A DNA stretch of 64,000 bases from an uncultured Gammaproteobacteria bacterium (GTDB lineage Bacteria; Patescibacteriota; Patescibacteriia; UBA11705; JABHMO01): assembly GCA_964590105.1 (NCBI GenBank), contig CAZPYM010000001.1:236746-300745 (forward strand), in the 5' to 3' direction. Position 1 is the first letter of the stretch, and every line of letters begins with the position of its first letter. The position numbers and the translations under genes were made by a program. Positions 1,212 to 15,490 of the stretch are shown piece after piece. A model generated the notes under the pieces. It was given only the letters and a program-made list of their open reading frames with translations, searched no databases and was not told the origin of the DNA.

Positions 1212-1242
1212 CTGGTCATTGATTAAGTTAAAAATAAATCAA

Positions 1243-1338: not shown

Positions 1339-1416
1339 TGGTGGATGTAGCTCAGTTGGTAGAGCATTGGCTTGTGGCGCCAATGGCCGCGGGTTCAAGT
1401 CCCGTCATCCACCCCA
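1339..1416 (+). tRNA. tRNA-His (anticodon GTG) with encoded G-1 and encoded 3' CCA
   Basis: Cloverleaf by eye: G-1 plus GTGGATG acceptor pairing with CATCCAC and C73; D-arm TAGCTCAGTTGGTAGAGC; anticodon stem TTGGC/GCCAA with loop TTGTGGC; T-arm GCGGG TTCAAGT CCCGT; CCA at 1414-1416. Confidence 0.9.
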
Positions 1417-1534: not shown

Positions 1535-2836
1535 ATGAAAAACGAAGCATTGCAAATGGCCAGAGGAGTACGCGATTTCGGGCCGGAAGAAAAAATTGCG
1601 CGCGATAAAATTGTTACTACATTAAAGCAAGTATTTGAATCTTTTGGCTACAACCCAATTGAAACTCCGGTTTTGGAACGATATGAATTATTCGCTTCCA
1701 AGTTTGGAATTGGCCAGGAGTCTGATGCTATGCGAGAAACTTTCAAATTAAAAGATCAGGGGAATCGAGATATTGTTTTGCGAACTGAATTTACAGTTCC
1801 GTTTTCAAGGTTTGTCGGCATGAATCCGCAATTCAAAAAACCATTCAAAAGATATCAGATAGGACAAGTTTTCCGCGACGGACCGATCAAGCTAGGCCGC
1901 TATCGTGAATTTTGGCAGTGTGATGTGGATGTGGTGGGGATTGGTAGTCCGCAGATTGACGCTGAAATCATTCAGTTGACTGTCGAAGCTTTTGCCAAAT
2001 TGGGAATGGAAATCGAATTTCGTTTGAATAACCGAAAAATATTAAACGAAATATTAAAATATGCCGGAATAACAGGAGAGCAGCAAATCTCAGCTATCAT
2101 TGCGATTGACAAACTTGATAAAATTGGAGTTGACGGCGTGAAAGAAGAATTAAAAGAAAAACAGATTGCCGGATCCGCAGTGGACACTATTTTAAAATTA
2201 ATTTCCATCGAAGGAAATAATCAGGGAAAAATTGTTCAGTTGCGAGATGTGTTGTCGGAAGTTGCCGGCTTGGATGAAGTCGAACAGGCCTTGGCTTTTG
2301 TTATTGACAATCAAAATGTGTTTTTCGTGCCTTCTCTGGCGCGCGGATTGGCATATTATACCGGAAATGTTTTTGAGGTTTATTTGAAGGATAGCTCGAA
2401 AATCAGTTCTTCTATTTGCGCCGGTGGCAGATATGACGATATGATCGGCGGATTTTTAGGAACTAATGAGGTTTATCCGGCAGTTGGGATCAGCTTTGGG
2501 CTCGAAACAATTTTTGATGCCATAAAATTAAATCAAAACAATGATGATGTTGTGAAATCAGTTACAGATGTATATTTGTTGGCGTTGGATGATAAATATG
2601 TTAAGAAAATCATGAACATTGCGAAACAACTGCGCCAAGCGGGAATTAAGGCGGATATGGATTATCTGGGACGCAAACTGAAAAAGAATTTAGAATATGC
2701 TGATAGTTATGGCGTCTCATGGGTGATAATGCTGGGAGAAAGTGAAGAAGTTGAGAATAAACTTATGCTGAGGAATATGAAAACCGGCGAACAGGAAAAA
2801 TTGTCAGTTGACCAAATTATTGAAAAATTGCGATAA
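1535..2836 (+). CDS. hisS: Histidyl-tRNA synthetase (class II), archaeal/eukaryal-like type
   Basis: N-terminal 'ARGVRDFGPEE'; 'FKLKDQGNRDIVLRTEFTVPFSRFVGMN'; motif 2 'RYQIGQVFRDGPIKLGRYREFWQCDVDVVG'; C-terminal anticodon-binding domain. 433 aa. Confidence 0.9.
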   Translation: MKNEALQMARGVRDFGPEEKIARDKIVTTLKQVFESFGYNPIETPVLERYELFASKFGIGQESDAMRETFKLKDQGNRDIVLRTEFTVPFSRFVGMNPQFKKPFKRYQIGQVFRDGPIKLGRYREFWQCDVDVVGIGSPQIDAEIIQLTVEAFAKLGMEIEFRLNNRKILNEILKYAGITGEQQISAIIAIDKLDKIGVDGVKEELKEKQIAGSAVDTILKLISIEGNNQGKIVQLRDVLSEVAGLDEVEQALAFVIDNQNVFFVPSLARGLAYYTGNVFEVYLKDSSKISSSICAGGRYDDMIGGFLGTNEVYPAVGISFGLETIFDAIKLNQNNDDVVKSVTDVYLLALDDKYVKKIMNIAKQLRQAGIKADMDYLGRKLKKNLEYADSYGVSWVIMLGESEEVENKLMLRNMKTGEQEKLSVDQIIEKLR

Positions 2837-2994
2837 ATATTGTTACAAAAAATTAGCCAAATTAAGGCTATTTTTTTGTTGTTCTGAACCAATATTTAAT
2901 CTTGATAATTTTTTGGTAAATTAGTGTTGACATGTGGATAAAAAAAAGGTAAGAATTAAATAATAAGTGCAAATAAATATTTAATACAAAGAAT

Positions 2995-4551
2995 ATGATT
3001 ACTTCTGAACAATTATTGGTATTGACAGGTGAAACGTTAAGCATCAATGATATTGTCGATGTTGCGCGTCATAAACGCATGAAGGTTATTATTAGTGAAG
3101 AAACAAAAAGTAAAATGCAAGCTTCCCGAGATTATGTGGCTAAAGTCGCAAATGAAAAAAGAGTTGTCTACGGCGTCACCACTGGTTTCGGAAAATTTAA
3201 AAATGTTGTTATTGCGCAGGATCAATTGTGTCAAATGCAAGAAAATTTAATTATGAGCCACGCTGTGGGCGTGGGTGAGCCGCTCAAAGAAGAAGAAGTC
3301 AGAGCGGCTGTTTTAGTCAGGGCAAATTCTTTGGTAAAGGGTTATTCTGGTGTGAGAATCGAATTGGTTGAAAAACTGCTTGAATTGGTCAATGCGGATA
3401 TTTACCCTTATGTTCCCTGCAAAGGATCAGTCGGCTCAAGCGGCGATTTGGCTCCATTGTCGCATATTATGTTGGTAATTCTTGGTATGGGTGAAGTGAT
3501 AGAAGGCGGCCAGAGAAAACCAAGCAATGAAGTATTGGCAAGGCTTGGGATTCAACCAATCAAGCTGGTGGCAAAGGAAGGCCTGGCGCTTATTAATGGT
3601 ACTTCAGTAATGACAGGTATCGCGGCCTTAGCAATTTTTGACGCAGAATTATTGACCCAAATGGCGGATATCTCCGGCGCAATGACACTTGAGGCTACTA
3701 TGGGTACGGTTGCTGCTTGTCATCATATGGTCCATTTAGCGAGACCTCATATTGGACAGCAAACTGTCGCTGAAAATATTCGTAGGCTATGCGCGGATAG
3801 CGCAATCGGTTATTCACATCGAAACTGTGATCGCGTGCAAGACGCTTATTCTCTTCGTTGTATGCCACAGGTGCATGGGGCTGTCAGGGATTCACTTCGA
3901 CATATTCGATCAGTAGTTGAAATAGAATTAAATTCCGCCACGGATAATCCTTTGATATTTCATGATTATGATTTAATTATTTCTTGTGGAAATTTTCACG
4001 GCGAACCAATTGCTTTTGTCATGGATTATCTTGGAATTGTTATTGCTGAGCTCGGAAATATTGCCGAGCGTCGGATTTGTCGGATGGTTGATCCGGCGAC
4101 CAGCGAAGGTTTGCCGGCGTTTCTTATTCCGCATGAACAGGCCGGCCTTAGCAGCGGTTACATGATTTCTCACTATACGGCGGCCGCAGTAGTTTCAGAA
4201 AATAAAATTTTGGCTCATCCTGCTAGCGTTGATTCGATTCCGACATCAGCAAACCAGGAAGATCATGTCAGTTTTGGAACAATTGCCGCCAGAAAAGCTA
4301 GACAAATTATTGAAAATGTATATGAAGTGATTGGAATTGAATTGATGAGCGCGGCGCAGGGGCTGGATTTTCATAAACCTTTGCTTCCCGGCCTTGGTTG
4401 TCAGGCGGCCTGGGAAATGATCCGTCAGTTTGTGCCATTTTCAGAAAAGGACAAAATTTTATATCAAGATATGCAGACTATCAGAAAAGAAATAATGCTT
4501 GACGGCAAAATTGTTCAGCATGTTGAGCAGAGGATCGGCAAATTGAGTTAA
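2995..4551 (+). CDS. hutH: Histidine ammonia-lyase family (MIO-dependent aromatic amino-acid ammonia-lyase/aminomutase)
   Basis: 518 aa. Signature 'GSVGSSGDLAPLSH' corresponds to the HAL 'GSVGASGDLAPLAH' MIO motif, with Ser-Ser-Gly in place of Ala-Ser-Gly. The protein shows similarity to HAL throughout. Confidence 0.8.
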   Translation: MITSEQLLVLTGETLSINDIVDVARHKRMKVIISEETKSKMQASRDYVAKVANEKRVVYGVTTGFGKFKNVVIAQDQLCQMQENLIMSHAVGVGEPLKEEEVRAAVLVRANSLVKGYSGVRIELVEKLLELVNADIYPYVPCKGSVGSSGDLAPLSHIMLVILGMGEVIEGGQRKPSNEVLARLGIQPIKLVAKEGLALINGTSVMTGIAALAIFDAELLTQMADISGAMTLEATMGTVAACHHMVHLARPHIGQQTVAENIRRLCADSAIGYSHRNCDRVQDAYSLRCMPQVHGAVRDSLRHIRSVVEIELNSATDNPLIFHDYDLIISCGNFHGEPIAFVMDYLGIVIAELGNIAERRICRMVDPATSEGLPAFLIPHEQAGLSSGYMISHYTAAAVVSENKILAHPASVDSIPTSANQEDHVSFGTIAARKARQIIENVYEVIGIELMSAAQGLDFHKPLLPGLGCQAAWEMIRQFVPFSEKDKILYQDMQTIRKEIMLDGKIVQHVEQRIGKLS

Positions 4552-4567
4552 ATAAAGATAATTAAAA

Positions 4568-4593
4568 AAGACTCCGATGAAGGAGTCTTTTTT
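4568..4593. terminator. Bidirectional intrinsic terminator AAGACTCC-loop-GGAGTCTT + TTTT
   Basis: 8-bp stem flanked by an A-run and a T-run, between the convergent HAL (+) and M20 (-) genes. Confidence 0.6.
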
Positions 4594-4648
4594 GATGATA
4601 TAAAATGCGAGAACATGAGTTAATCCAAGGTCGTATATTCGGAGGAGT

Positions 4649-5824
4649 TTAAGGTGTTCCACAGTAGTGCTGAATTATTGCGGAATATATGTCCCGCGTA
4701 ACTTCAAGAGAGTCAATGTCGACCCACTCATTAGGTTTATGGGCGTTGTCACCCAATGGCCCCAAATTAACAACGGGAATGCCGAATTTTTCTTGCAAAA
4801 ATTGTCCGTCGCCAAAACCTTTGTCCGCGCCATCCGCGTATTGCGCATTTTTACCGCTAATAGTTGCTATTGCCTTTTCGACAACTTGAATCTTTTCCGG
4901 AGCTGTATAAAGTGCCCCGAAGTCGTGTGCTATCTTGGTTTCTAATCGACAACCAAACCTTGTTTGCGCTAGTGCTACCATTTTTGCAGCCAGGATTTTT
5001 CCATTTATATCCGGCGAATTGGTGCGTATGTCAATAACACATTCAGCGTAATCGGCAATCATATTGCCCTGTTGTCCTATTTTAATTTTCCCGCCAGAAT
5101 CCGTTCCCTTATTAATACCGCCATGTAATGAAGACAGATTAAGGGTTGTTAAGCCGAGAGTTTGATGTGGCGTTGCTTCTTCAAATTCTGTTCGAAGAAA
5201 ATCGATTGTTTGATATAGCGCATCAATTGCATTATTTCCTTCTTTCGGATTTTTGGCATGACCGGTTTTTCCGAACATTTGTAAATGTATTTCAACAATG
5301 CCGCGATGAGCATTCCATATCTCGAGATCGCTCGGTTCTGCAATCATTGCTAATTCTGGTATGCCATTTTCTTCTGGATACTCAGCTAGGAACTTTTTCA
5401 TTCCGGCAAAATCGTATTCTTCGTCGCAATAAAAAAGCACAAACAATCCTTCTGCCTTTTGCAGTAAGGAAATTGCGTCCATGATAGCGGCGCACCCACC
5501 TTTCATATCATAAGCGCCTAATCCGTAAAAACGAGTGCCCTCAATTCTTCCGGCTATAGGATCGCCTTGCCAGCCTTCTTGCCGAGGGACAGTGTCTAGA
5601 TGTCCGCCAAGAAAAAGTCGGGGTTTACCGGGAGTAGTTGCGATTACATTGAATCTACCACTGTTGCCGATTGGTTGCTTTTGCACTTTAAGAAATTTAA
5701 ACTTGACAAGGTATTGGTAAACAAACTCGGCTAGCTGTCGTTCATCAGCGTTTTCTCCCACAAAACTAGGTATGGCAACTAAATTTTGCAGAAGCATAAA
5801 TGTGGAATTTTGTTTGATTGACAT
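4649..5824 (-). CDS. M20 family metallopeptidase (ArgE/DapE/N-acyl-amino-acid deacylase type)
   Basis: 'GGHLDTVP', 'GLGAYDMKGG' and 'CDEE' metal-binding motifs. 391 aa. SD AAGGAGG lies upstream of the start. Confidence 0.8.
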   Translation of the reverse strand: MSIKQNSTFMLLQNLVAIPSFVGENADERQLAEFVYQYLVKFKFLKVQKQPIGNSGRFNVIATTPGKPRLFLGGHLDTVPRQEGWQGDPIAGRIEGTRFYGLGAYDMKGGCAAIMDAISLLQKAEGLFVLFYCDEEYDFAGMKKFLAEYPEENGIPELAMIAEPSDLEIWNAHRGIVEIHLQMFGKTGHAKNPKEGNNAIDALYQTIDFLRTEFEEATPHQTLGLTTLNLSSLHGGINKGTDSGGKIKIGQQGNMIADYAECVIDIRTNSPDINGKILAAKMVALAQTRFGCRLETKIAHDFGALYTAPEKIQVVEKAIATISGKNAQYADGADKGFGDGQFLQEKFGIPVVNLGPLGDNAHKPNEWVDIDSLEVTRDIYSAIIQHYCGTP

Positions 5825-6029
5825 AGAGACCTCCTTATGTTAAAGACCTAATTTAATTTTACCTTTTTTAATTTAAATGTCAAATACAATGTTTATAGTT
5901 GTTGCTTGTTTGCTTGAGTGATTCATTAAATTTATGCACAACTTGATTTGACATTTTTAAAATTAGTCGTGTAAACTAAAGATGATTCTGTCGGGTACTT
6001 TTACAATTTAGTTTAAGGGAGGTGCGGAA

Positions 6030-7595
6030 ATGCAAAGATTGAAATATGCAAAATTGATACCAGGTGGCAATACTACAATCATTATTTTTGACCAAGTGCC
6101 ACGCAAGCATCAAGCACTGCTTGCGCGAACGATTATGGAACAGCATTCGGACTGTGAACAGGTAGGGTTTGTTGAACCTGCGAGTGGCAACTCTAAGGCA
6201 ATTTGTCGTTTGCAAATGATGGGTGGCGAGTTCTGTGGCAATGCCACACGATGCCTGACTTGGCTCGTCGCGGGCCATTATTTGCATCATGGCGATACCT
6301 GCAATGCCGAAATCAAGAATCAACTATTTGGTTCAGTTTGCAGATCTTCGGGTTCAACTACGGGCGACAATGAAGATACTAATAACCAGCAGGTTCTGGC
6401 AATGGAAGTCTCCGGTGCCGGGTATATTCTTGAAGCTAAATATTTGATTGATTCATCGGGTAAAGTGGATGATGTTATCGTCCCGATGCCGATCCGGTTC
6501 GTGCCGGCGGATTGTTTGAAACAATCTCAGTTGTTCTGGAATGAAAACGAAATGACTGTTACCATTGTTCATCTGGATGGAATTAGCCACGTAATTGTGG
6601 ATTCTAACAGATTTTCCGAAATCGGTGGTGATCCGGGGAATTTGTTGGAAACCAAACATATCTTGGCATCATTCGGCCTGGAGCAGTTAGAGGCGGCAGG
6701 TGTTATTTTCACGAGACAAGTTGGTGATTCTGTCGCCATAGTGCCGGTTGTTTATGTTCGTGAAACCGATACCTTGATTCTGGAAACCGCTTGTGGTTCA
6801 GGTACTGTAGCTTTGGCACAGAAAATTGCTTTTGAAAAAGGCGAAAGCGTTTTTGTAAAAATCATTCAGCCCAGCGGCGAAACCATCGCTGCACGTGTTG
6901 AAATGTTGAATGGAATGTTTGAATCCGCTTCTATCATGGGCAAGGTCAATATCTGTGAAGAAGGCGTAATTTCTATTCCTAATGAAGACAATCCTCTTGC
7001 GAAGGTTGAGCTTCAACAAATCAAGAGACCGGAAGAACTTGAGCCTTATGCCGACCAGGTAGGATCTTTGTATGCCCGAGTTTTTGCCGACGCACCATAC
7101 TATGAACGATTTACTCCTGAAGAGGGGTATGGCTATCTGCTGGAGATTGCAGCTGCTAACCATGGACTTTTGTTTCTGGCTTTTGATGGTGACGATGTGG
7201 TGGGTTTTGGCGGTGGTTTACCGCTGACATATGACTCGGACATTTGCAAGGTGGTAAATGGTTGCCTTAAACAGGAACGCGCTTTCTATATCGCTGAGCT
7301 CGGCGTGGATCATTGCTACCGCGGTTTGGGCTTGAGCCATGAGTTAATTAATTCCTGTCATAGGGCTATTGACCAAGAACAGTTCGATCAGGTGCTAGTG
7401 AGAACTTCAGTGGCGAATAACGCCACTCTGCACCTGTTTCGCGATCGGCGTGATTTTAGCGTTATTGCCAACGTGCGCCAGCAAGTGGTCAACCGCAAGT
7501 TCCTGCCAGGCGCCACGGAGCCGCAGGATGTTCCTGATGAGCGGCTGTTCCTTGTCCGTACAGTCAAGTCTGCCAAGCAGAACTTGGCAACTTAG
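6030..7595 (+). CDS. Fusion protein: DapF/PhzF-fold PLP-independent amino-acid racemase/epimerase (N-terminal) + GNAT N-acetyltransferase (C-terminal)
   Basis: N-terminal 'IPGGNTTIIIFDQ' resembles DapF GNDFxxVD. First catalytic-Cys motif is 'MMGGEFCGNATRC'; second is 'LETACGSGTVALA'. C-terminal (~aa 330-521) GNAT motif 'YRGLGLSHEL'. SD AAGGGAGG. GC-rich. Confidence 0.65.
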   Translation: MQRLKYAKLIPGGNTTIIIFDQVPRKHQALLARTIMEQHSDCEQVGFVEPASGNSKAICRLQMMGGEFCGNATRCLTWLVAGHYLHHGDTCNAEIKNQLFGSVCRSSGSTTGDNEDTNNQQVLAMEVSGAGYILEAKYLIDSSGKVDDVIVPMPIRFVPADCLKQSQLFWNENEMTVTIVHLDGISHVIVDSNRFSEIGGDPGNLLETKHILASFGLEQLEAAGVIFTRQVGDSVAIVPVVYVRETDTLILETACGSGTVALAQKIAFEKGESVFVKIIQPSGETIAARVEMLNGMFESASIMGKVNICEEGVISIPNEDNPLAKVELQQIKRPEELEPYADQVGSLYARVFADAPYYERFTPEEGYGYLLEIAAANHGLLFLAFDGDDVVGFGGGLPLTYDSDICKVVNGCLKQERAFYIAELGVDHCYRGLGLSHELINSCHRAIDQEQFDQVLVRTSVANNATLHLFRDRRDFSVIANVRQQVVNRKFLPGATEPQDVPDERLFLVRTVKSAKQNLAT

Positions 7596-7805: not shown

Positions 7806-8906
7806 ATGAAAATAAAATCAATCAAAGCAATTCCCGTTTTCTTTAAATTGTTTAAACCCTTTATTTTTTCAGGAGTGAAATTAGAGATTTTGGATTATGT
7901 TTTGGTAAGAATAGAAACAAATGATGGTGCTGTCGGGTTTGGTGAGTGTCCGGTGTACTGGGAGCCAAGAGGCGAGACTCAGATATCCACTCTTGAGGAC
8001 ATTGAAAAGGTTAAGCCATATTTATTGGGGTTGCGAGCTGATGATGTCGAGGCACGATTGGAAATTTTTCAAAAATATATTCCGCGGGCCTATGCTGCTC
8101 AATGTGGTCTAGATTTGGCGATGTACGATGCTACTGGAAAAACTTTAAATTTGCCTGTTTATAAATTTTTTGGTGAAGCTAAACCAATACCGGTGGATGT
8201 GGTCATTCCTATGATGGGAAAAAATGAGGCAGAGCCGATTATAAATAAATCCCTGTCAGAACAGGTTAAAGTATTTAAAGTAAAAGTTGGTCAAGATATT
8301 GAAAATGAGGTTGAGTTGCTAAAAATGATCAGAGGAAAAATCGGATCAGAGTTATTAATTTATGTTGATGCCAACCAGGGCTTTAAGAGTGTTGACGATA
8401 CAGTGAGTTTTATAAAAAGGATAGTTGATCTAGATATTGCCTGGATAGAACAGCCATTGCCTGCATCGGCTCCACTCGAGGAATTTATACAATTAAAAAA
8501 ACAGTTGCCAATCAAAATAATGTTGGATGAGTCGGTTTATACTTTTGAAGATGTGGAATTGTTTGCCGGGAATGAAGCTTGTGATATGTTTAATATTAAA
8601 CTGGCTAAGAGCGGCGGGATTTCCGGGGCAATTAAATTTTTTGAAGTGGCGGAAAAATTTGGCAAAGAATGCATGTTGGGGTCAATGATAGAAGGGGCTT
8701 CGGGCACTTTCGGCGGCGCACATTTTGCCAGTACTCATCAAATGATAATAACCGCATTGACGGCTTATAGGTTTATTGATGATGAATTGGCTTTTGGTCC
8801 TAAAATTAAATCTAGTTTAATGGAAGTCCCTGAAAAACCCGGATTAGGGTGCGAAAAAGAAGAACTATTTCAAAAGAGGTTCGATGATTTTTCGGATATA
8901 ATATAA
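7806..8906 (+). CDS. Enolase-superfamily racemase/epimerase (dipeptide epimerase or N-acyl/N-succinyl-amino-acid racemase-like)
   Basis: MR/MLE-family pattern: N-terminal capping domain 'VLVRIETNDGAVGFGE'; KxK 'KVKVG'; metal ligands 'DANQG', 'EQP' and 'MLDES'; second base 'IKLAKSGG'. Confidence 0.7.
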   Translation: MKIKSIKAIPVFFKLFKPFIFSGVKLEILDYVLVRIETNDGAVGFGECPVYWEPRGETQISTLEDIEKVKPYLLGLRADDVEARLEIFQKYIPRAYAAQCGLDLAMYDATGKTLNLPVYKFFGEAKPIPVDVVIPMMGKNEAEPIINKSLSEQVKVFKVKVGQDIENEVELLKMIRGKIGSELLIYVDANQGFKSVDDTVSFIKRIVDLDIAWIEQPLPASAPLEEFIQLKKQLPIKIMLDESVYTFEDVELFAGNEACDMFNIKLAKSGGISGAIKFFEVAEKFGKECMLGSMIEGASGTFGGAHFASTHQMIITALTAYRFIDDELAFGPKIKSSLMEVPEKPGLGCEKEELFQKRFDDFSDII

Positions 8907-9032: not shown

Positions 9033-10433
9033 ATGGACCAAGAAAAACTTTTACCGCGCGTTTTAAGCGGATTTCGAGATTATCCGCCGGAACAGGTACG
9101 GGCAAGGGATTTGATGATGGACAAGATCAGGCGGACATTCGAGCTGTTTGGTTTTGATCCGCTCGATACCACGACTGTGGAATTCTTGGAAATTCTTACT
9201 GGCAAAATGCCGGGCTGGGATCAGATGGGCTTGTACACTCTTGACAGTTCGATTGAAAGACGGATTGATCGGGGAGATGAAGAAACATTTTGGCTCAAGA
9301 AAACCGGCTTGCGATTTGATCTGACTGTTTCGCTTGCTCGGTATGTTGCGGCCAATCTGGATACTCTACCGCGCCCGTTCAAGCGCTATCAGCTTGGCAA
9401 GGTTTACAGGGCAGAAAGCCCTCAGGAAGGCCGCTATCGCGAGTTTTTCCAGTTTGACGCGGACACCATGTTTGCGCCGAATGTTGTAGCTGACGCAGAA
9501 ATCATCGCGCTCATGGTTGAAACCATGCTGGCGCTGGATCTGCCGCGCTCCATTGTAAAAGTAAATAATCGCAAAATCGCCGAAGGTCTTTCTTCATTGA
9601 TCGGCTTTGAGCCAAGACTTTTGAACGACGTTCTGCGCGTTCTTGACAAGCGCGACAAAGTTGGCCGCGAGGAAATGATCAGTGAGCTACGGCTTGAGCT
9701 TGGCGAAGAAGAAGATGGCAAAAGGGGCCTTGGGCTCGATGAAAAACAAGTGGAAACCCTGATGAACTTTGTCGAATTGCAAGGCGAATTGTCCGACAAA
9801 CTGGCATTTTGCCGAAATTTGTTCAAGGGCATTGAAATCGCCGAGAACGGATTTGATGAACTGGAAAGAATCGCTGAATACCTGAGAGCCATGGGTGTTG
9901 AGCCGGCAATGTGGGAAGTGGACTTTTCCATTGTCCGCGGGCTGGCGTACTACACCGGCCCGGTATTTGAAACGCAATTGCTCGACTTGCCTGAAATCGG
10001 CAGCGTATTTTCCGGTGGGCGGTTTGACAATCTGGTATCACGTTTTTCCAGTGCCAAAGTGCCTGGCACCGGCGCATCAGTGGGCGTTGACCGATTGCTT
10101 GCGGCCTTGCTGAAGCTTGAGAAAATCAAACTGACGCCGACTTGTGTGCAATGCCTGGTCATGGCGCTAACCAGTGATTTGACTGCTGAAATGGCAGTTT
10201 TGGGGCAACTGCGGCGAGCTGGCATCAATGCCATGATCTACACTGGCTCAGATATGTCTTTCAAGGCCCAGTTTGTCAGGGCAGTGAAGTTCAATGTGCC
10301 CTATATAATGATCCTTGGTGACAAGGAATTGGCTGACGGCACTGTAACGGTGCGCGATCTCGCTACTCGCGCCCAGGTAACCATTGCCCGAGATCTTCTC
10401 GTGGAATATTTCAGAGACAAAGGTATGGCTTGA
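9033..10433 (+). CDS. hisS: Second, divergent histidyl-tRNA synthetase paralogue (full length, with anticodon-binding domain), GC-rich
   Basis: 'FRDYPPEQ'; 'LRFDLTVSLARYVAAN'; motif 2 'RYQLGKVYRAESPQEGRYREFFQFDAD'; motif 3 region 'GGRFD'; C-terminal anticodon-binding domain. 466 aa. SD AAGGGGG. About 50-57% GC by inspection against ~33% locally. Confidence 0.8.
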   Translation: MDQEKLLPRVLSGFRDYPPEQVRARDLMMDKIRRTFELFGFDPLDTTTVEFLEILTGKMPGWDQMGLYTLDSSIERRIDRGDEETFWLKKTGLRFDLTVSLARYVAANLDTLPRPFKRYQLGKVYRAESPQEGRYREFFQFDADTMFAPNVVADAEIIALMVETMLALDLPRSIVKVNNRKIAEGLSSLIGFEPRLLNDVLRVLDKRDKVGREEMISELRLELGEEEDGKRGLGLDEKQVETLMNFVELQGELSDKLAFCRNLFKGIEIAENGFDELERIAEYLRAMGVEPAMWEVDFSIVRGLAYYTGPVFETQLLDLPEIGSVFSGGRFDNLVSRFSSAKVPGTGASVGVDRLLAALLKLEKIKLTPTCVQCLVMALTSDLTAEMAVLGQLRRAGINAMIYTGSDMSFKAQFVRAVKFNVPYIMILGDKELADGTVTVRDLATRAQVTIARDLLVEYFRDKGMA

Positions 10434-10480: not shown

Positions 10481-10554
10481 GGGTACGTAGCTCAGTTGGT
10501 TAGAGCAACGGATTGTGGCTCCGTAAGTCGCGGGTTCGATTCCCGTCGTACCCC
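10481..10554 (+). tRNA. tRNA-His (anticodon GTG), second copy; C at -1 (no encoded G-1), C73, no encoded CCA
   Basis: Acceptor GGGTACG/CGTACCC; D-arm TAGCTCAGTTGGTTAGAGC; anticodon stem ACGGA/TCCGT with loop TTGTGGC; T-arm GCGGG TTCGATT CCCGT. Base -1 is C, and CTT follows C73. Confidence 0.85.
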
Positions 10555-10561
10555 CTTCAAT

Positions 10562-10668: not shown

Positions 10669-11499
10669 ATGAAAGGCGAATATTTAATCTGTTTGGAGGT
10701 TGACAATACACTGCTCGATAGAAATTATCGCGCCACTTCGCCGACCATAAATTCGGTTATCAATCAGCTGTCGGCAGAAGGACATATTTTTATTTTGAAC
10801 TCAAACAGAGCGCTGGAAGACTTGTTGTCAATAGCGAAAATTTTTGAAATTGCCGGTCCGGTTATCGGCGAAAATGGCACCTTTATTTATTATCAGGATT
10901 TGGGAAAAACCGAAACTTTAATTGATGATGCTGTCTTGGGTCAGATTGAGCAAATTAAAAATGCAATTCCAGGTCTGATAAACAGTTATTTTCCGGAAGC
11001 AATGTTTCAAATCGGCGATACGACTGATATCAATAAGCACCTGGATATTCAAGAAATTCCGCGCGACAAAAAACTTTTGTTTTTCATGAATGAATTCCGT
11101 AGATACACTATTAGTATACACGTAAAGAAAATTGAAAACGGAGTGTTGAGCAAAGACATTACAACTGCAGGCAAACTGTGCGGTTTAATTGCTGAATACA
11201 TTGAAAAAAATAAAATGTCTTTGCGCGCAAGTTATACAGAATCATATGCCAATGTTCTGGTTTGCCCGACAACTACTGACAAGACCAGGGCGTATAATTA
11301 TTTGGTCCAAAAATTCCCGAAACATTTGCGGATATTTATTGCGGATGACGCCGATGACAAACCTGTGACTGGAGGCGATTACTTATTCGTCGTGAATAAC
11401 GCCACTCAGGAAGCAAAAAACATGGCAAATTATGTTTCACTTGAAAATATAACCAAGGGAGTGGAAGATATTTTATTAAAAATGGATAGATTAATATGA
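10669..11499 (+). CDS. HAD-superfamily (Cof-like) hydrolase, variant motif I (EVDNT)
   Basis: N-terminal 'LICLEVDNTLLD' aligns to the HAD DxDxT motif with Glu at the nucleophile position. The C-terminus has a 'DDADD'-like acidic motif. 276 aa. Confidence 0.45.
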   Translation: MKGEYLICLEVDNTLLDRNYRATSPTINSVINQLSAEGHIFILNSNRALEDLLSIAKIFEIAGPVIGENGTFIYYQDLGKTETLIDDAVLGQIEQIKNAIPGLINSYFPEAMFQIGDTTDINKHLDIQEIPRDKKLLFFMNEFRRYTISIHVKKIENGVLSKDITTAGKLCGLIAEYIEKNKMSLRASYTESYANVLVCPTTTDKTRAYNYLVQKFPKHLRIFIADDADDKPVTGGDYLFVVNNATQEAKNMANYVSLENITKGVEDILLKMDRLI

Positions 11500-12056
11500 G
11501 AAAATATCAAATCGGAGTCATGGGTTCGGCCGCTGATTTAAAATATGAAAAAGAATTGGAAAAAATCGCCGAAACAATTGGCCGGCTTATTGCCGAAAAC
11601 GGGCATACAACAGTTTACGGCGCTGAAAAAGACTATGATTCTCTGTCAACAGCGGCGGCCCGGGGCGCAAAAGCTGCCAATGGATTGACTGTTGGTGTTA
11701 CTTATGGCCGAGGAAAAGATATTTGGGACAAAAATGATAATACGGATGTGATCATTTGCAGCGGACTAGAAAGAGGCGGCGGCAGAGAATTTGTTTTAGT
11801 TAATAGTTGCGACGCGTTAATTGCGGTAAGCGGCGGATCCGGTACGTTGAGCGAGCTTGCAATTGCTTATCAGTTGGATATTCCCTGCATAGTGATTGAA
11901 AATACTGGCGGTTGGTCTGATAAATTAGCCGGACAATTTCTTGATCAGCGAAGCAGACGAAAAATAATTGGAGCAAAAAGCGCAGAAGAAGCAGTGGCAA
12001 AAATATTGGAAATTCTTCAAAACGAAATAAATAGTCCTTCGAAGTCTGCTAAGTAG
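11496..12056 (+). CDS. LOG/TIGR00725-family Rossmann-fold protein
   Basis: 'GVMGSA...' N-terminus and 'SGGSGTLSELAIAY' (PGGxGTxxE-like) motif. 186 aa. Confidence 0.5.
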   Translation: MRKYQIGVMGSAADLKYEKELEKIAETIGRLIAENGHTTVYGAEKDYDSLSTAAARGAKAANGLTVGVTYGRGKDIWDKNDNTDVIICSGLERGGGREFVLVNSCDALIAVSGGSGTLSELAIAYQLDIPCIVIENTGGWSDKLAGQFLDQRSRRKIIGAKSAEEAVAKILEILQNEINSPSKSAK

Positions 12057-12062
12057 TAAGTC

Positions 12063-12098
12063 GCGAGTGGTGAGTTAAACTAATTACTCACCACTCGC
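12063..12098 (+). terminator. 13-bp perfect hairpin GCGAGTGGTGAGT-N10-ACTCACCACTCGC (terminator-like, weak T-tract)
   Basis: Perfect inverted repeat directly after the LOG gene stop. Confidence 0.45.
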
Positions 12099-12158
12099 CA
12101 CTTATTAATTTATTGAGTTTATATATCATAGTTCATTGAAAGTAATAATGGAGGGAGC

Positions 12159-13238
12159 ATGACTGAAATAGCAGGGAAGCTCGAGGGAACTGGCAGAAAC
12201 AAGTACCTGGTTTCCGGTGATTTGCGAGTCATAGTCGGAAGATGGCTTGGGTCAAAGGGACCATTTTTTCTGCCCGACAAAAAATTGTTTGAATCTTTGC
12301 AATCAGCAGTAGTCGAAAAGTTGGAGGAAATATTCCAGCCTCGCGGGGTGGATGTGGTTTATTTGCCGTGGGATCACCTTAAAACCGGAATCCTACTGCA
12401 TATTGCCAATCACGCGGGCGATGTACCGGTTGTATCGCTGGATCAGGTCTATGTTGAAGAGGGCACCGCTGATATATATCTTGATGCAAATCGCATAGTC
12501 AAATGGTCAAAGCACACTGAAGGTGTTGATTGGCGGCAGGGATGGAGTGAAATTGGCCACGGACCTCGGCGTTCTGACTATGGAATCGCTTCGCAGCTTG
12601 AGCGTATTGTCAATCAGGGACGTATAAAGCGCATGCAGGACAAAAGAGTCGTGGTGGTGGATGACGGCACCTGGACAAGAGGGTCTCTTATTGCAGCGAA
12701 AAACCTTTTGGCAAGCGTCGGGATACGAGTTGATAAGTTTATAGTTGGAATTGAAATCAGATCAGGAACTGAAAAAGATGAAACCTTTGAAATCCCGTTT
12801 TTGTGGGTTGAAAAGTTTTGCAAGGAAGCTGTGGTTGACTGGGTTGGCGAAAGGGATTTTTTCCCAGGAGTCGGGTTTTCCGGCAGAACAGTAGGAGAAT
12901 TGATTGAAAATAACACTGAACCGGCGACGTTTCGACAGTTTTATATTTCCATGCCGATGGAAGGTAATTATGGCGCGCCGTATGTCATGCCGCTTGGTGA
13001 TCCAGTGACCTGGGCTAATGTCCCAGAAAAAAAGGCAATTGAATTTTCAATGTTCTGTCTTGACTGCGCAATTCAGCTTTATACCGCAATTGAAGCGGAA
13101 ACTCGCAGGATTACCGGACAATCCATCAAAATAAAAGTCAGTCATCTCGAACGACCGCCGTATTTTTACAGAAAGATCAAAGACATGCCGGTGACAGAAG
13201 CTCTGGCCAGCTCAAGAAAAATCTTGGAAAACATTTAA
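12159..13238 (+). CDS. Hypothetical protein with phosphoribosyltransferase-like motif, GC-rich
   Basis: 'RVVVVDDGTWTRGSL' resembles the type I PRTase PRPP-binding loop. No other recognisable family. 359 aa. Confidence 0.35.
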   Translation: MTEIAGKLEGTGRNKYLVSGDLRVIVGRWLGSKGPFFLPDKKLFESLQSAVVEKLEEIFQPRGVDVVYLPWDHLKTGILLHIANHAGDVPVVSLDQVYVEEGTADIYLDANRIVKWSKHTEGVDWRQGWSEIGHGPRRSDYGIASQLERIVNQGRIKRMQDKRVVVVDDGTWTRGSLIAAKNLLASVGIRVDKFIVGIEIRSGTEKDETFEIPFLWVEKFCKEAVVDWVGERDFFPGVGFSGRTVGELIENNTEPATFRQFYISMPMEGNYGAPYVMPLGDPVTWANVPEKKAIEFSMFCLDCAIQLYTAIEAETRRITGQSIKIKVSHLERPPYFYRKIKDMPVTEALASSRKILENI

Positions 13239-13489: not shown

Positions 13490-13658
13490 ACGAGATAGCT
13501 TTAATACATAGGACAAATATGCAAAGCAAAATTCCCAACAATCAATTATTGCGTCCGGCCGGAACCAACATGACGGATTGCTTTGTGTTTTTAACTCATA
13601 TTATAAACAGAAATCAGTCCATCATGGGCTGATTTCATTGTTTCAAAAGGAGGAAGTC

Positions 13659-14168
13659 ATGGAAAAATCACAGCTTCGCCAGGCAAATGGTCAGGATCTG
13701 ATACACATGGAAGAAATTTTTCAGCTGATTTTTGAAGAAAATCGGAAAAGTTTGATGGCTTACAAAGAGCGGGAAGAATTAAAAGCGGAGATAGTAAACG
13801 GCCAAGCGTTCCTGCTTTTTTTGGACGAAATCCTGGTAGGCTATTGCTCATACAAAATTTGGCAGTCGTGCATCGAAATCATGAGTCTGGTTTTGCGGGC
13901 AAAATATCGACAGCGCGGATATGGATTTACGCTTTGCTATTACGTGGTAAATCTGGCAAAAGAACTTTGGCCCGACAAACTGATTTTGGCCTTGCCAAAT
14001 GACAATTCAGTTGGAATTCTACAGAAGTGTGGTTTTGTAGAGTTTCCAAAAGTGGAATTACCCGATGAGTTGCGGCAGTCATGTGCAGGTTGTCTTGAGT
14101 ATAATGATTTTCCTGACTGCCATTGTCAAACCTTGCGTTTGCCTGGAAAAATTAAAACAATGAAATAA
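13659..14168 (+). CDS. GNAT family N-acetyltransferase with Cys-rich C-terminal tail
   Basis: SD AAAGGAGGA then ATG at 13659. 'QRGYGFTL' acetyl-CoA binding motif. C-terminal 'CAGCLEYNDFPDCHC'. Confidence 0.6.
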   Translation: MEKSQLRQANGQDLIHMEEIFQLIFEENRKSLMAYKEREELKAEIVNGQAFLLFLDEILVGYCSYKIWQSCIEIMSLVLRAKYRQRGYGFTLCYYVVNLAKELWPDKLILALPNDNSVGILQKCGFVEFPKVELPDELRQSCAGCLEYNDFPDCHCQTLRLPGKIKTMK

Positions 14169-14174
14169 TAATCG

Positions 14175-14198
14175 CGGGAGAGCGCGAGCGCTCTCCCG
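14175..14198 (+). terminator. 10-bp GC-rich palindrome CGGGAGAGCG-CGAG-CGCTCTCCCG (terminator-like, no T-tract)
   Basis: Perfect hairpin a few nt after the GNAT stop. Confidence 0.4.
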
Positions 14199-14220
14199 TA
14201 TATATCCTAATTAAAAATTT

Positions 14221-15342
14221 ATGAATGAAGTTCAATTATTGAAAAATTTAATTTCCATTGATTCACAGTGCTCAAAGTCGAATAAAAAAATTGTTGATTT
14301 TATTGTCTCCCTTTTTCCCGCGAAAAATTGTTTTATTACGCCACTCAAAAAAGCTGATTTAAATTTGTATAATTTGGAAATCAGATTCAAGGGAAAAAAA
14401 AGTGGCCGGCCGCTCATTTTTAGCGGGCATACTGATACTGTCCCAACTTCAAATAGATGGAAAAAGGATCCGTTTCATCCAGTTGTTTCCGACAATAAAA
14501 TTTACGGCCTAGGTTCGAGCGATATGAAGGCCGGCGTTGCCTGCATGATAAAAACCGCGCAATCTTTAATCGGCATAATTCCGGCTTGCGACGTGATCTT
14601 CCTATTTGACGCTGATGAAGAGGGCGGCTGTACCGGCGGAAAAAGTTTTATTAAAAATAAAAAGATCAAAGCGGGTTCGGCCAAAGTGGTTGTTTGCGAA
14701 CCAACGGGCGGGCGTTTGCGAGTCGGACAAAAAGGCGCAATTGAGATTTACGCGACTTTTCGCGGCAAAGCATTTCATGCCAGTCGTACCAGTTTTGCAA
14801 AAAATTTAAAACTAAATGCCATTCATAAAGCGCTTCAGGGAATGAAAGAACTTGAAAAATTGGAAAAAGAGCTTGAGAAAAAGAAAGACAAGCAGTTCAA
14901 TTTTCCAACGCAGGCGATTTGCCGCATATCCGGCGGTACCGCGGTAAATGTTATTCCGGATGAATGCAGTTTTGTAATCAACCGCCGTGTTTTACCGAGT
15001 GAAAACATGGATCAGATTGTCAAACAAATTTCTGGCTGTTTAAAAAAGATTGACCCACGGGTTGAAATAAAGATTGGTTTTTTGGGAGCGCCTAATTTGC
15101 TTCCCCTAACCAGTGAGTTATTGAAAATAACAAAAAAAATTACTGAAAAAGTTTGGAAGCGGGCTGTAGTCGCGGTTGAACCGGGCTGGACACAGGCAGG
15201 ATTATTTAAAAAATGGGGCGACTGTTTGATCTGGGGGCCAGGCGAAATAACTATGGCGCATCAGGCAGACGAATATTGCCCGATCGGCGATCTCGAAAAA
15301 ATGACTACATGCTACAAAAAACTAATTGAATTGCAGAATTAA
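14221..15342 (+). CDS. M20 family metallopeptidase (ArgE/DapE/aminoacylase type), second copy
   Basis: 'SGHTDTVP', 'GLGSSDMKAG' and 'DADEEGG' motifs. 373 aa. Confidence 0.8.
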   Translation: MNEVQLLKNLISIDSQCSKSNKKIVDFIVSLFPAKNCFITPLKKADLNLYNLEIRFKGKKSGRPLIFSGHTDTVPTSNRWKKDPFHPVVSDNKIYGLGSSDMKAGVACMIKTAQSLIGIIPACDVIFLFDADEEGGCTGGKSFIKNKKIKAGSAKVVVCEPTGGRLRVGQKGAIEIYATFRGKAFHASRTSFAKNLKLNAIHKALQGMKELEKLEKELEKKKDKQFNFPTQAICRISGGTAVNVIPDECSFVINRRVLPSENMDQIVKQISGCLKKIDPRVEIKIGFLGAPNLLPLTSELLKITKKITEKVWKRAVVAVEPGWTQAGLFKKWGDCLIWGPGEITMAHQADEYCPIGDLEKMTTCYKKLIELQN

Positions 15343-15432
15343 AAATTCTTTAAGTATGCGGTGCAATATTCAATGCATTATTAATAAGAAAAAGAGCTGT
15401 GATTAGGACAGTTCGGCTTTAAGTTTGAATAA

Positions 15433-15462
15433 AGAGCCGAGCTGTTCGCCCGGCTCTTTTTG
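15433..15462 (+). terminator. Intrinsic terminator AGAGCCG-loop-CGGCTCT + TTTTTG
   Basis: Hairpin plus T-tract between the M20 gene and the following GNAT gene. Confidence 0.5.
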
Positions 15463-15490
15463 TTTCCAAGCAAATCAACCGGAGGAAAAA

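What the first reader, a model, noticed from the sequence alone, without database searches (positions are those of the whole stretch)
2995..4551. HAL-family MIO enzyme with Ser-Ser-Gly instead of Ala-Ser-Gly, adjacent to hisS and lacking other hut genes
The 518-aa protein is clearly HAL/PAL family. In 'GSVGSSGDLAPLSH' the Ala of the MIO-forming Ala-Ser-Gly triad is Ser. No hutU, hutI or hutG is in the window, so this is not a canonical histidine-utilisation operon. Sitting beside hisS and tRNA-His, it may be a His-specific lyase for urocanate production, or an aminomutase or other MIO enzyme.
Basis: partly seen in the sequence, partly recalled or inferred. Interest (0 to 1): 0.5.

Follow-up and report, generated by a model that had tools for sequence, protein, structure and literature searches.

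The report
Stand-alone histidine ammonia-lyase beside hisS
This is by sequence an ordinary histidine ammonia-lyase from an ultra-small (Patescibacteria) bacterium whose Ser-Ser-Gly motif is a common natural variant; the more notable point is that in these bacteria the gene sits next to the histidyl-tRNA synthetase, tRNA-His and histidine-handling genes instead of the usual histidine-degradation genes.

Summary
ORF 2995-4551 (+) encodes a 518-aa HAL-family protein with GSVGSSGDLAPLSH (Ser148-Ser149-Gly150). tRNA-His and hisS lie just upstream, and no hutU, hutI, hutG or ftcD occurs in the 64 kb.

The implication that Ser-Ser-Gly marks an unusual enzyme is not supported. The protein passes the curated HutH model. 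It keeps every HAL catalytic residue and the HAL-specific Ser-His dyad, and its model superposes on P. putida HAL at TM 0.91-0.93. SSG occurs in 66 of its 120 closest homologues. It also occurs in HAL genes inside canonical hutU-hutI-ftcD clusters. The Ser codon is one base from Ala.

The genome is Patescibacteria (CPR). Two CPR HAL clades carry ASG, SSG, CSG or TSG. None of their loci shows hut neighbours, and most with enough flank have a HisRS gene within 5 kb, often with tRNA-His, an M20 deacylase and a GNAT.

Here the island also holds:
- a CntK-like histidine racemase fused to a GNAT
- an N-succinyl-amino-acid-racemase-like enolase
- a second HisRS and a second tRNA-His

Most likely it is a genuine L-histidine ammonia-lyase producing urocanate and ammonia, acting as a stand-alone drain on a managed histidine pool. 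I rate it a new member of a known kind, of modest interest.

The parts
1341..1416 (+). tRNA-His(GTG) no. 1: canonical bacterial type with an encoded G at -1 (nt 1340), C73 and an encoded CCA
   Evidence: ARAGORN, Rfam tRNA 72 bits, sequence read
1535..2836 (+). HisRS paralogue 1 (433 aa). Closest named relatives are Kuenenbacteria and Falkowbacteria, then DPANN archaea
   Evidence: TIGR00442 364 bits against cut-off 287; homologue list
2854..2870 (+). terminator-like hairpin plus T-run after hisS1
   Evidence: consensus scan only
2927..2956 (+). promoter-like TTGACA-18-AAGAAT, 39 nt upstream of the HAL start
   Evidence: consensus scan only
2995..4551 (+). histidine ammonia-lyase (HutH orthologue), 518 aa
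3436..3444 (+). codons TCA AGC GGC = Ser148-Ser149-Gly150, the tripeptide expected to form the MIO group
   Evidence: aligned to Ala142-Ser143-Gly144 of P. putida HAL
4564..4593 (.). 12-bp-stem hairpin flanked by A/T runs between the convergent HAL and M20 genes (bidirectional terminator-like)
   Evidence: consensus scan only
4649..5824 (-). M20 ArgE/DapE-type deacylase (391 aa). Similar genes lie next to HAL in other CPR loci (41% id L092, 31% L009, 28% L007)
6030..7595 (+). fusion of a CntK/HisR-like histidine racemase (both catalytic Cys motifs present) with a GNAT acyltransferase (521 aa)
   Evidence: (PF26317 CntK_N)
7806..8906 (+). enolase-superfamily MLE-subgroup enzyme (366 aa). Closest solved relative is entry 2p88, deposited only as 'MR/MLE family protein', which I recall as B. 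cereus N-succinyl-Arg/Lys racemase; the next hits are L-Ala-D/L-Glu epimerases
9033..10433 (+). HisRS paralogue 2 (466 aa, 31% identical to paralogue 1). This is the type found next to HAL in Uhrbacteria, Komeilibacteria and others
10481..10555 (+). tRNA-His(GTG) no. 2: C at -1 (no encoded G-1), C73, no encoded CCA
10669..13238 (+). HAD-IIB hydrolase (10669-11499), SLOG/LDcluster4 protein (11496-12056) and a CPR-specific 359-aa protein with a divergent type-I PRTase core (12159-13238). This set recurs near HAL or HisRS in other CPR loci
13578..16018 (+). second acyltransferase/deacylase set: GNAT (13578-14168), M20 (14221-15342), GNAT (15425-16018)
   Evidence: also present in L091

Best explanation
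The gene encodes a genuine MIO-dependent L-histidine ammonia-lyase (HutH orthologue, EC 4.3.1.3). Ser148-Ser149-Gly150 is expected to cyclise and dehydrate autocatalytically to the 4-methylidene-imidazol-5-one electrophile. Only the backbone of the first residue takes part, so Ser can replace Ala. The enzyme then converts L-histidine to trans-urocanate plus ammonia. In this Patescibacteria (CPR) genome, and in other Patescibacteria, the enzyme is not linked to the Hut pathway. It has its own promoter-like and terminator-like signals and lies inside a histidine-themed island. That island holds two tRNA-His genes, two HisRS genes, an M20 deacylase, a histidine racemase::GNAT fusion and an N-succinyl-amino-acid-racemase-like enolase. 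The likely role is a one-step drain on the free L-histidine pool that the neighbours supply (D-His or N-acyl-His to L-His) and that HisRS consumes. It would release ammonia and leave urocanate as an end product. Shown: sequence, residues, fold, context and its conservation. Inferred: MIO formation, activity, the fate of urocanate and the coupling with the neighbours.
For: Family: HutH equivalog TIGR01225 scores 669 bits (cut-off 539) and NF006871 678 bits (cut-off 524). Aminomutase, PAL and TAL models all fall below their cut-offs.

Residues: P. putida HAL Y53, S82-H83, S143-G144, D145, N195, Q277, Y280, R283, F329 and E414 align to Y59, S88-H89, S149-G150, D151, N201, Q282, Y285, R288, F334 and E422. 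All are invariant in 34 SSG homologues. PMC11432326 reports the Ser/His dyad as the HAL substrate switch, and Y52, H82, N194 and E411 as essential in G. kaustophilus HAL.

Fold: the AlphaFold2 model has pLDDT 89. Its top PDB neighbours are P. putida and T. cruzi HAL at TM 0.89-0.93 and rmsd about 2 A.

SSG is normal: 66 of 120 closest homologues carry it. SSG HALs sit in hutU-hutI-ftcD clusters in L037 (Acidaminobacter), L098-L106, L111 and L143. The Ser codon TCA is one base from Ala or Thr codons, and 37 of 38 Ser at this position use TCN.

Stand-alone status: no hut genes in the window or in any CPR-clade locus, while 61 non-CPR loci carry them next to HAL.

Linkage: HisRS lies within 5 kb in 33 of 72 hut-less loci. 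That includes 9 of 14 loci of the window's clade and 12 of 15 Roizmanbacteria-clade loci with enough flank. Orientations vary. tRNA-His is adjacent in most loci checked. HAL-M20-GNAT-HisRS gene order occurs in L092 and L094; L167, whose contig begins with only the last ~90 codons of the HAL gene, shows M20-GNAT-HisRS after that fragment. No riboswitch or T-box was found.
Against: No biochemical data exist for any SSG-type HAL in the searchable literature. PMC11432326 states that all characterised HALs have Ala-Ser-Gly. Absence of hutU and hutI is shown only for 64 kb and for flanks of up to 10 kb in relatives, not for whole genomes. The physiological role (drain, ammonia source) rests on gene neighbourhood alone. 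Some CPR loci with full flanks lack a nearby HisRS (L080, L125, L132, L138). The HAL looks monocistronic, so co-regulation with hisS is not shown.
Confidence: 0.75

Rival explanations
1. Ordinary first step of a complete Hut pathway. The genes hutU, hutI and hutG or ftcD exist elsewhere in the genome and histidine is degraded to glutamate; only the gene order is unusual.
For: The protein is a HutH orthologue in every sequence respect. Only about 64 kb of a genome likely near 1 Mb is visible; neighbouring genes of this island (HisRS1, unk359) are on record on a contig of 563,767 bp, which could not be read here. The nearest non-CPR relatives sit in canonical hut clusters.
Against: No CPR-clade locus has a hut gene within up to 10 kb on either side, on contigs up to 347 kb. 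Hut genes are adjacent in 61 non-CPR loci recovered by the same searches. Stand-alone HutH is also reported for reduced DPANN genomes (PMC8407392). From my own knowledge, Patescibacteria genomes generally lack multi-step amino-acid catabolism.
Confidence: 0.12
2. A different MIO enzyme: a tyrosine or phenylalanine ammonia-lyase, a 2,3-aminomutase, or a lyase for a modified histidine. On this reading the Ser-Ser-Gly change marks the functional shift.
For: The family includes such enzymes. A related CPR gene (L094) is fused to an EgtD-type histidine methyltransferase domain, which hints that methylated histidines may occur in some lineages. From PMC11432326, HAL accepts N-tau-methylhistidine and His methyl ester.
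Against: Tyr_2_3_mutase scores 434 bits against cut-off 501, Phe aminomutase 419 against 800, PAL 295 against 519, and FlxA TAL 379 against 700. The selectivity dyad is Ser-His, as in HAL, and the imidazole-binding His89 and Glu422 are present. SSG occurs in canonical hut operons. From my own knowledge, trimethylammonia-lyases for hercynine or ergothioneine lack the MIO triad. This protein has the triad and matches ergothionase far less well (225 bits) than HAL (394-434 bits).
Confidence: 0.04
3. The enzyme serves histidine supply rather than disposal. It would run in the amination direction (urocanate + NH4+ to L-His), or be physically coupled to HisRS, so that a histidine auxotroph can salvage urocanate released by neighbours.
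For: There is tight and recurrent linkage to HisRS and tRNA-His in two CPR HAL clades. No downstream urocanate enzymes are seen. From my own knowledge, CPR bacteria generally lack amino-acid biosynthesis.
Against: From my own knowledge, the equilibrium of MIO lyases lies far toward elimination at physiological ammonia (constants in the molar range). No fusion or conserved operon with HisRS exists: orientation varies and the HAL here has its own promoter-like and terminator-like signals. The neighbours (racemase, deacylase) already offer routes to L-His.
Confidence: 0.04

Closest known systems
Histidine ammonia-lyase HutH (P. putida 1B8F/1GKM, T. cruzi 6V6H, T. acidophilum 7TQR, G. kaustophilus HAL)
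   Same: Same length class and the same fold (TM 0.89-0.93). It has 40-41% identity to these enzymes, all catalytic residues, the Ser-His substrate dyad and an X-Ser-Gly-Asp MIO motif. It passes the HutH equivalog HMM.
   Different: The first triad residue is Ser, not Ala (all characterised HALs have Ala according to PMC11432326). The gene is not in a hut operon. Instead it is linked to HisRS and tRNA-His.
SSG-type HutH genes inside canonical hutU-hutI-ftcD clusters (e.g. Acidaminobacter sp. MAG, locus L037; metagenome loci L098-L106)
   Same: Same Ser-Ser-Gly triad. They are about 50-52% identical and are the nearest non-CPR neighbours in the NJ tree.
   Different: Those genes are flanked by urocanase, imidazolonepropionase and formiminotransferase. 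This one is not.
Stand-alone histidase without urocanase (mammalian epidermis; HutH-only DPANN Micrarchaeota, PMC8407392)
   Same: HAL acts as a terminal enzyme, with urocanate as the end product.
   Different: Here it sits in a genomic island with aminoacylation and D/L- or N-acyl-histidine genes. The role of the urocanate is unknown.
[quoted passage not shown] This applies to the neighbours, not to the HAL.
   Same: The window has a GNAT, an MLE-subgroup enolase enzyme and an M20 deacylase side by side. The enolase enzyme's best solved relative is entry 2p88, which I recall as B. cereus N-succinyl-Arg/Lys racemase (the deposited name is generic).
   Different: The GNAT is fused to a CntK/HisR-like histidine racemase, and the set is bracketed by HisRS genes and a HAL. 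Substrates are untested.

Membership tests
Histidine ammonia-lyase (HutH, EC 4.3.1.3; TIGR01225 / PF00221) | Whole-protein score above the curated cut-off of the HutH equivalog model | tested here: met
   TIGR01225 669.4 bits against 539.15; NF006871 678 against 524; PF00221 651 against 27
Histidine ammonia-lyase (HutH) | MIO-forming tripeptide X-Ser-Gly followed by Asp, in the GS(V/L)G-x-SGDL context | tested here: met
   GSVG-S148-S149-G150-D151-L. X is Ser instead of the textbook Ala. The central Ser, the Gly and the Asp are invariant
Histidine ammonia-lyase (HutH) | Ser-His substrate-switch dyad (PpHAL S82-H83), as opposed to the different dyads of TAL and PAL (His-Leu and Phe-Leu, from my own knowledge) | tested here: met
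   S88-H89 in 'NLIMSHAVGVG', invariant in A1. Dyad definition from PMC11432326
Histidine ammonia-lyase (HutH) | Catalytic and substrate-binding residues Y53, N195, Q277, Y280, R283, F329, E414 (PpHAL numbering) | tested here: met
   Y59, N201, Q282, Y285, R288, F334, E422; all invariant in 34 homologues
Histidine ammonia-lyase (HutH) | HAL fold without the extra PAL shielding domain | tested here: met
   AF2 pLDDT 89.3. Foldseek top hits are 1gk2, 1b8f and 6v6h at TM 0.89-0.93 and rmsd 1.9-2.5 A. Plant PAL and PAM reach only TMt 0.66
Histidine ammonia-lyase (HutH) | Catalytic activity L-His to trans-urocanate + NH3, and an actually formed MIO | not testable with these tools
   Needs expression, an A277 assay, UV difference spectrum or mass spectrometry
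Hut histidine-utilisation pathway/operon (hutH-hutU-hutI-hutG or ftcD) | Urocanase, imidazolonepropionase and a formiminoglutamate-processing enzyme encoded with hutH | tested here: not met
   No hit in six-frame ORFs of the 64-kb window or by Pfam. None in the CPR-clade loci. Presence elsewhere in the genome was not testable
MIO aminomutases (TIGR03832 Tyr 2,3-aminomutase; TIGR04475 and TIGR04473 Phe aminomutases) | Score above the curated cut-off | tested here: not met
   433.6 against 501; 418.8 against 800; 218.2 against 1250. PDB SgTAM 335 bits against HAL 394-434 bits
PAL / TAL (TIGR01226, NF053541, NF041222) | Score above the curated cut-off; aromatic selectivity dyad | tested here: not met
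   294.9 against 519; 378.8 against 700; 310.3 against 1000. The dyad is Ser-His
MIO-less HAL-like trimethylammonia-lyases (ergothionase, histidine-betaine lyase) | Absence of the Ser-Gly MIO triad (from my own knowledge of the family) | tested here: not met
   The triad is present. Ergothionase 6s7j scores only 225 bits
[quoted passage not shown] | Co-located GNAT acyltransferase, MLE-subgroup N-acyl-amino-acid racemase and M20 deacylase | tested here: inconclusive
   All three domain types are adjacent. The enolase's best PDB hit is 2p88, deposited as 'MR/MLE family protein' and recalled by me as N-succinyl-Arg/Lys racemase (159 bits), but dipeptide epimerases score nearly as well. Pathway definition from bioRxiv 10.1101/2022.03.03.481873. 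Activities are untested

The most novel reading that the evidence does not exclude
In Patescibacteria, HAL is not a catabolic enzyme of a Hut pathway. It is one arm of a conserved, dedicated histidine-homeostasis module made of HAL, HisRS, tRNA-His, an M20 deacylase and a GNAT. In this genome the module also has a histidine racemase::GNAT fusion, an N-acyl-amino-acid racemase and a second HisRS/tRNA-His pair that lacks the universal encoded G-1. In one relative the HAL is fused to an EgtD-type histidine methyltransferase. The module would capture histidine from D-, N-acyl- or peptide-bound forms, feed tRNA charging and burn the excess. That would be a previously undescribed way for an auxotrophic episymbiont to manage an essential amino acid.
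Probability: 0.3. Interest if true: 0.55.

Novelty: new member of a known kind. Interest (0 to 1): 0.33.

Why it matters
For enzymology, the textbook 'Ala-Ser-Gly' MIO motif turns out to be only one of four states (A, S, T, C) that interconvert freely in nature. SSG enzymes sit in ordinary hut operons. An SSG or TSG HAL would therefore be a cheap and informative enzyme to characterise, but it is not a new chemistry.

For the biology of Patescibacteria, there is a recurrent link between a stand-alone HAL and HisRS, tRNA-His and deacylase/acyltransferase genes. It spans Parcubacteria-type classes and Roizmanbacteria (Microgenomates). This suggests that these auxotrophs actively manage their histidine pool. 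It also gives a concrete, testable gene set for doing so.

Tried and rejected
- **His-responsive leader:** I looked for a T-box or riboswitch around hisS and HAL. Rfam at E<=1 on 1-17,500 returned only tRNAs.
- **Literature on motif variants:** I searched for Ser-Ser-Gly or SSG MIO variants and found nothing. One search was a badly chosen 'anywhere' search and was wasted.
- **Literature on CPR:** I searched for HAL or urocanate in CPR. The only relevant hit was a DPANN paper noting stand-alone HutH.
- **Whole-genome absence of hutU and hutI:** this was not possible.
- **unk359 as a G-1-adding enzyme:** I asked whether the 359-aa neighbour (12159-13238) could be a Thg1-like enzyme for the G-1-less tRNA-His. 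There is no Pfam Thg1 hit, and its AF2 model resembles type-I phosphoribosyltransferases only. I rejected the idea.
- **HAL-M20 fusion in L094:** I rejected this. The C-terminal extension is an EgtD-family methyltransferase domain, and the M20 is the next gene.
- **Shared GNAT family:** the ~225-aa GNAT family beside HAL in other CPR loci has no homologue in the window.
Full report

Yes. ORF 2995-4551 (+) starts at ATG and encodes 518 aa containing CKGSVGSSGDLAPLSHIML. The three triad codons are TCA AGC GGC at nt 3436-3444. Pfam Lyase_aromatic matches end to end (651 bits, E 1e-195).

- ARAGORN and Rfam place tRNA-His(GTG) at 1341-1416, and a HisRS gene follows at 1535-2836.
- A six-frame phmmer search of the whole window with HutU, HutI, arginase-type HutG and formiminotransferase references gave no hit at E<=1e-3. 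Those references were taken from canonical loci and validated by Pfam.
- Pfam scans of 50 of the 53 ORFs listed (>=80 aa up to 12 kb, >=150 aa beyond) found no hut family.
- The same gene order is present on three independent metagenome assemblies.

**2. Whose genome is it?**

The closest named HAL homologues are from Candidatus Uhrbacteria, Magasanikbacteria, Komeilibacteria and 'Parcubacteria/Patescibacteria group' MAGs. The neighbouring HisRS1 and the 359-aa protein point to Kuenenbacteria and Falkowbacteria relatives. This is a Patescibacteria (CPR) genome.

**3. Is it a HAL, and is Ser-Ser-Gly unusual?**

The protein passes the curated HutH equivalog model (TIGR01225, 669 bits against cut-off 539). 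It fails the curated cut-offs of the Tyr and Phe aminomutase, PAL and TAL models.

Its best solved relatives are HALs of T. cruzi (434 bits), T. acidophilum (396) and P. putida (394). SgTAM scores 335 and ergothionase 225. In the HMMER alignment the chain numbering equals P. putida HAL numbering. The residues map as follows:

| P. putida HAL | This protein |
|---|---|
| Y53 | Y59 |
| S82-H83 | S88-H89 |
| A142-S143-G144-D145 | S148-S149-G150-D151 |
| N195 | N201 |
| Q277 | Q282 |
| Y280 | Y285 |
| R283 | R288 |
| F329 | F334 |
| E414 | E422 |

All of these are invariant in an alignment of 34 SSG-type homologues (A1). PMC11432326 documents the Ser/His dyad as the HAL substrate-switch motif. It also shows that the equivalents of Y53, H83, N195 and E414 are essential. 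An AlphaFold2 model (pLDDT 89.3, pTM 0.91) superposes on P. putida and T. cruzi HAL at TM 0.89-0.93 and rmsd about 2 A.

The Ser at the first triad position is not exceptional.

- Among the 120 closest database clusters, 66 have SSG, 52 ASG and 2 CSG.
- A more distant clade has TSG.
- SSG HALs lie inside canonical hut clusters. L037 (Acidaminobacter sp. MAG) reads hutU, hutI, ftcD, then HAL, all confirmed by Pfam. Metagenome loci L098-L106, L111 and L143 show the same.
- In an NJ tree these hut-embedded SSG genes are the nearest non-CPR neighbours of the window's clade. This is neighbour-joining only, so the branching is indicative.
- Of 38 Ser codons at this position, 37 are TCN, one first-base change from Ala (GCN) or Thr (ACN).

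From established knowledge of MIO chemistry, the ring forms from the backbone of residues 142 and 144 and the side chain of Ser143. The side chain of residue 142 is not transformed, which explains the tolerance. I also recall that the PROSITE histidase/PAL signature allows S, A or C at this position. I could not check that here.

The searchable literature contains nothing on an SSG MIO. PMC11432326 notes that all characterised HALs have ASG. An SSG enzyme is therefore uncharacterised, but not unexpected.

**4. The surroundings**

The interesting part is the context. The gene order in the window is:

| Coordinates | Strand | Gene |
|---|---|---|
| 1341-1416 | + | tRNA-His no. 1 |
| 1535-2836 | + | HisRS1 |
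| 2995-4551 | + | HAL |
| 4649-5824 | - | M20 ArgE/DapE-type deacylase |
| 6030-7595 | + | CntK/HisR-like racemase fused to a GNAT (521 aa) |
| 7806-8906 | + | enolase-superfamily MLE-subgroup enzyme |
| 9033-10433 | + | HisRS2 |
| 10481-10555 | + | tRNA-His no. 2 |
| 10669-13238 | + | HAD hydrolase, SLOG/LDcluster4 protein, 359-aa PRTase-like protein |
| 13578-16018 | + | GNAT, M20, GNAT |

- The racemase domain aligns with S. aureus CntK (6l4l, 6jis; deposited as 'diaminopimelate epimerase', identified as CntK from my own knowledge) and with chains named 'histidine racemase' (9cr6). Both catalytic Cys motifs are present, FCGNAT and ACGSGT.
- The enolase-family enzyme's best solved relative is entry 2p88 (deposited as 'MR/MLE family protein'; I recall it as B. 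cereus N-succinyl-Arg/Lys racemase), at 159 bits. L-Ala-D/L-Glu epimerases come next.
- The HAL has a promoter-like site at 2927-2956. Terminator-like hairpins lie on both sides, at 2854-2870 and 4564-4593. These are consensus matches only. No T-box or riboswitch was detected.

**5. Is the linkage conserved?**

I gathered 169 loci around HAL genes, including re-fetches of the window's own contigs (L001-L003, L170-L172). I annotated their six-frame ORFs with the window's proteins and the Hut references.

Of 133 loci with at least 5 kb of total flank, 61 carry hut genes next to HAL. These are Firmicutes, Actinomycetes, Synergistota, Chloroflexota and others. Only 8 of those 61 have a weak (110-140 bit) HisRS-like ORF nearby, 7 of them in actinomycete/Gaiellales MAGs and one in a Clostridia MAG.

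The other 72 lack hut genes, and 33 of these have a HisRS within 5 kb. In the tree the hut-less, HisRS-linked loci form two clades.

- **The window's clade.** It includes Uhrbacteria, Komeilibacteria, Saccharimonadia and others, with a mix of SSG, ASG and CSG. HisRS lies within 5 kb in 9 of 14 loci. Most of the five without it have short flanks.
- **A TSG clade.** One member carries a source name, Candidatus Roizmanbacteria, which I take to represent the clade. HisRS lies 0.2-4.4 kb downstream in 12 of 15 loci with enough flank.

Orientation varies: collinear upstream, divergent, or downstream. That argues for selection on proximity rather than an inherited operon. From my own arithmetic, for a genome of about 1 Mb the chance of one given gene lying within 5 kb of another is about 1%.

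tRNA-His genes accompany the HisRS in most loci checked. L092 and L094 show the order HAL-M20-GNAT-HisRS; L167, whose contig begins with only the last ~90 codons of the HAL gene, continues M20-GNAT-HisRS. In L094 the HAL is fused to an EgtD-family 'histidine-specific methyltransferase' domain. The window's M20a is 41%, 31% and 28% identical to the HAL-adjacent M20 of L092, L009 and L007.

**6. Most likely function**

Enzymatically it is L-His to trans-urocanate plus NH4+ via an MIO made from S148-S149-G150. I hold this with high confidence, from sequence, residues and fold.

Physiologically it is a one-step, stand-alone drain of the free L-histidine pool in an auxotroph. It sits with the consumer (HisRS and tRNA-His) and with likely suppliers. 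The suppliers would be a racemase for D-His, and GNAT, NSAR-like and M20 enzymes for N-acyl-His or possibly His dipeptides. This part is inferred from conserved neighbourhood only.

Urocanate would be an end product unless an unrecognised enzyme handles it. Section 7 of the Rival explanations section gives the alternatives with their refutation tests.

**7. Comparison with the known, and novelty**

It is a member of the HutH family, and every sequence-level defining feature I tested is met. It is not part of a Hut operon. It is not an aminomutase, a PAL or TAL, or an MIO-less trimethylammonia-lyase.

Stand-alone HAL is known in other settings: mammalian epidermis (from my own knowledge) and HutH-only Micrarchaeota (PMC8407392). 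I found no report of the CPR-wide HAL-HisRS-tRNA-His-M20-GNAT association.

**Verdict:** a new member of a known kind. The motif 'anomaly' is a common natural variant, and the conserved context is a modestly interesting lead.

**8. Limits**

- Whole-genome absence of hut genes was not testable.
- No biochemical evidence exists.
- The tree is NJ only.
- Promoter and terminator calls are consensus matches.
- The metagenome locus samples depend on the search patterns used.

Noticed in passing
window 1340-1416 and 10480-10555; also L004, L005, L007, L009, L091, L092, L152, L166: There are two very different tRNA-His genes. No. 1, next to HisRS1, has an encoded G-1, C73 and CCA. No. 2, next to HisRS2, has C at -1, so no encoded G-1, and no encoded CCA. 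In all 8 distinct CPR loci read, the tRNA-His beside a HisRS2-type gene lacks an encoded G-1 (the -1 base is C, T or A), and N73 varies (C, U, A, G). L005 and L091 carry three tRNA-His genes. Either G-1 is added after transcription or these HisRS enzymes do not need it.
   Followed up: partly
window 1535-2836 and 9033-10433: Two HisRS paralogues are only 31% identical, and both pass the hisS equivalog cut-off. HisRS1 is shared with Kuenenbacteria and Falkowbacteria, and at about 50% identity with DPANN archaea (Woesearchaeota, Nanoarchaeota). It therefore looks like an archaeal-type enzyme paired with the G-1 tRNA.
   Followed up: partly
window 6030-7595: A 521-aa fusion joins a CntK/HisR-like PLP-independent histidine racemase to a C-terminal GNAT acyltransferase. 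Both catalytic Cys motifs are present (FCGNAT, ACGSGT). I am not aware of this architecture having been described.
   Followed up: partly
window 4649-8906: An M20 deacylase, a GNAT and an MLE-subgroup enolase enzyme lie together. The enolase's best PDB hit is 2p88, deposited under a generic MR/MLE name and recalled by me as N-succinyl-Arg/Lys racemase. [quoted passage not shown]
   Followed up: partly
L094 1618-4122 (metagenome contig Ga0114931_10018825): In a related CPR locus the SSG-type HAL is fused to an EgtD-family histidine-specific SAM methyltransferase domain, giving an 834-aa ORF. The gene order is MFS transporter, HAL::EgtD, M20, GNAT, HisRS.
   Followed up: partly
window 10669-13238; L004, L005, L007, L080, L091: A HAD-IIB hydrolase, a SLOG/LDcluster4 (TIGR00725) protein and a CPR-restricted 359-aa protein recur near HAL or HisRS in several CPR classes. 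The 359-aa protein models confidently (pLDDT 90). About half of it resembles type-I phosphoribosyltransferases (APRT/OPRT; Foldseek E 1e-4). Its function is unknown.
   Followed up: partly
L117-L161 (one member named Candidatus Roizmanbacteria, e.g. PIV09842.1): A distinct CPR HAL clade, 40-44% identical, has Thr-Ser-Gly. It carries 'YGLNTGIGGFG' instead of 'YGxNTGFG' and an Ala-His instead of the Ser-His dyad ('RMLRAH'). It has no hut neighbours and usually has HisRS downstream. Its substrate specificity may differ slightly.
   Followed up: no
L039, L049, L056, L058, L073, L074, L083, L085: In seven actinomycete/Gaiellales MAGs canonical hut clusters are followed 3-4.7 kb downstream by a weak (110-140 bit) HisRS-like ORF; a Clostridia MAG (L049) has one 1.5 kb upstream. 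It could be a HisRS, a HisZ-like paralogue or another class-II synthetase. I did not examine it.
   Followed up: no
window 19600-62100: There is a long surface-glycan biosynthesis region, same-strand from ~30.5 kb (a tRNA-Trp at 26778-26851 and an ORF at 27316-28101 lie on the minus strand), with lower G+C (0.30-0.38 against 0.40-0.43 in the histidine island). It holds many glycosyltransferases, sugar epimerases and dehydratases, a DegT aminotransferase, a flippase, and a polysaccharide pyruvyl transferase next to an FrhB/FdhB-like Fe-S protein (47811-50403). Several large ORFs in the window have no Pfam match (17797-19485, 31970-33631, 40508-44449).
   Followed up: no
window 25687-26775: A protein-L-isoaspartate O-methyltransferase gene is followed by a stand-alone LigD 3'-phosphoesterase-domain protein (150 aa).
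   Followed up: no
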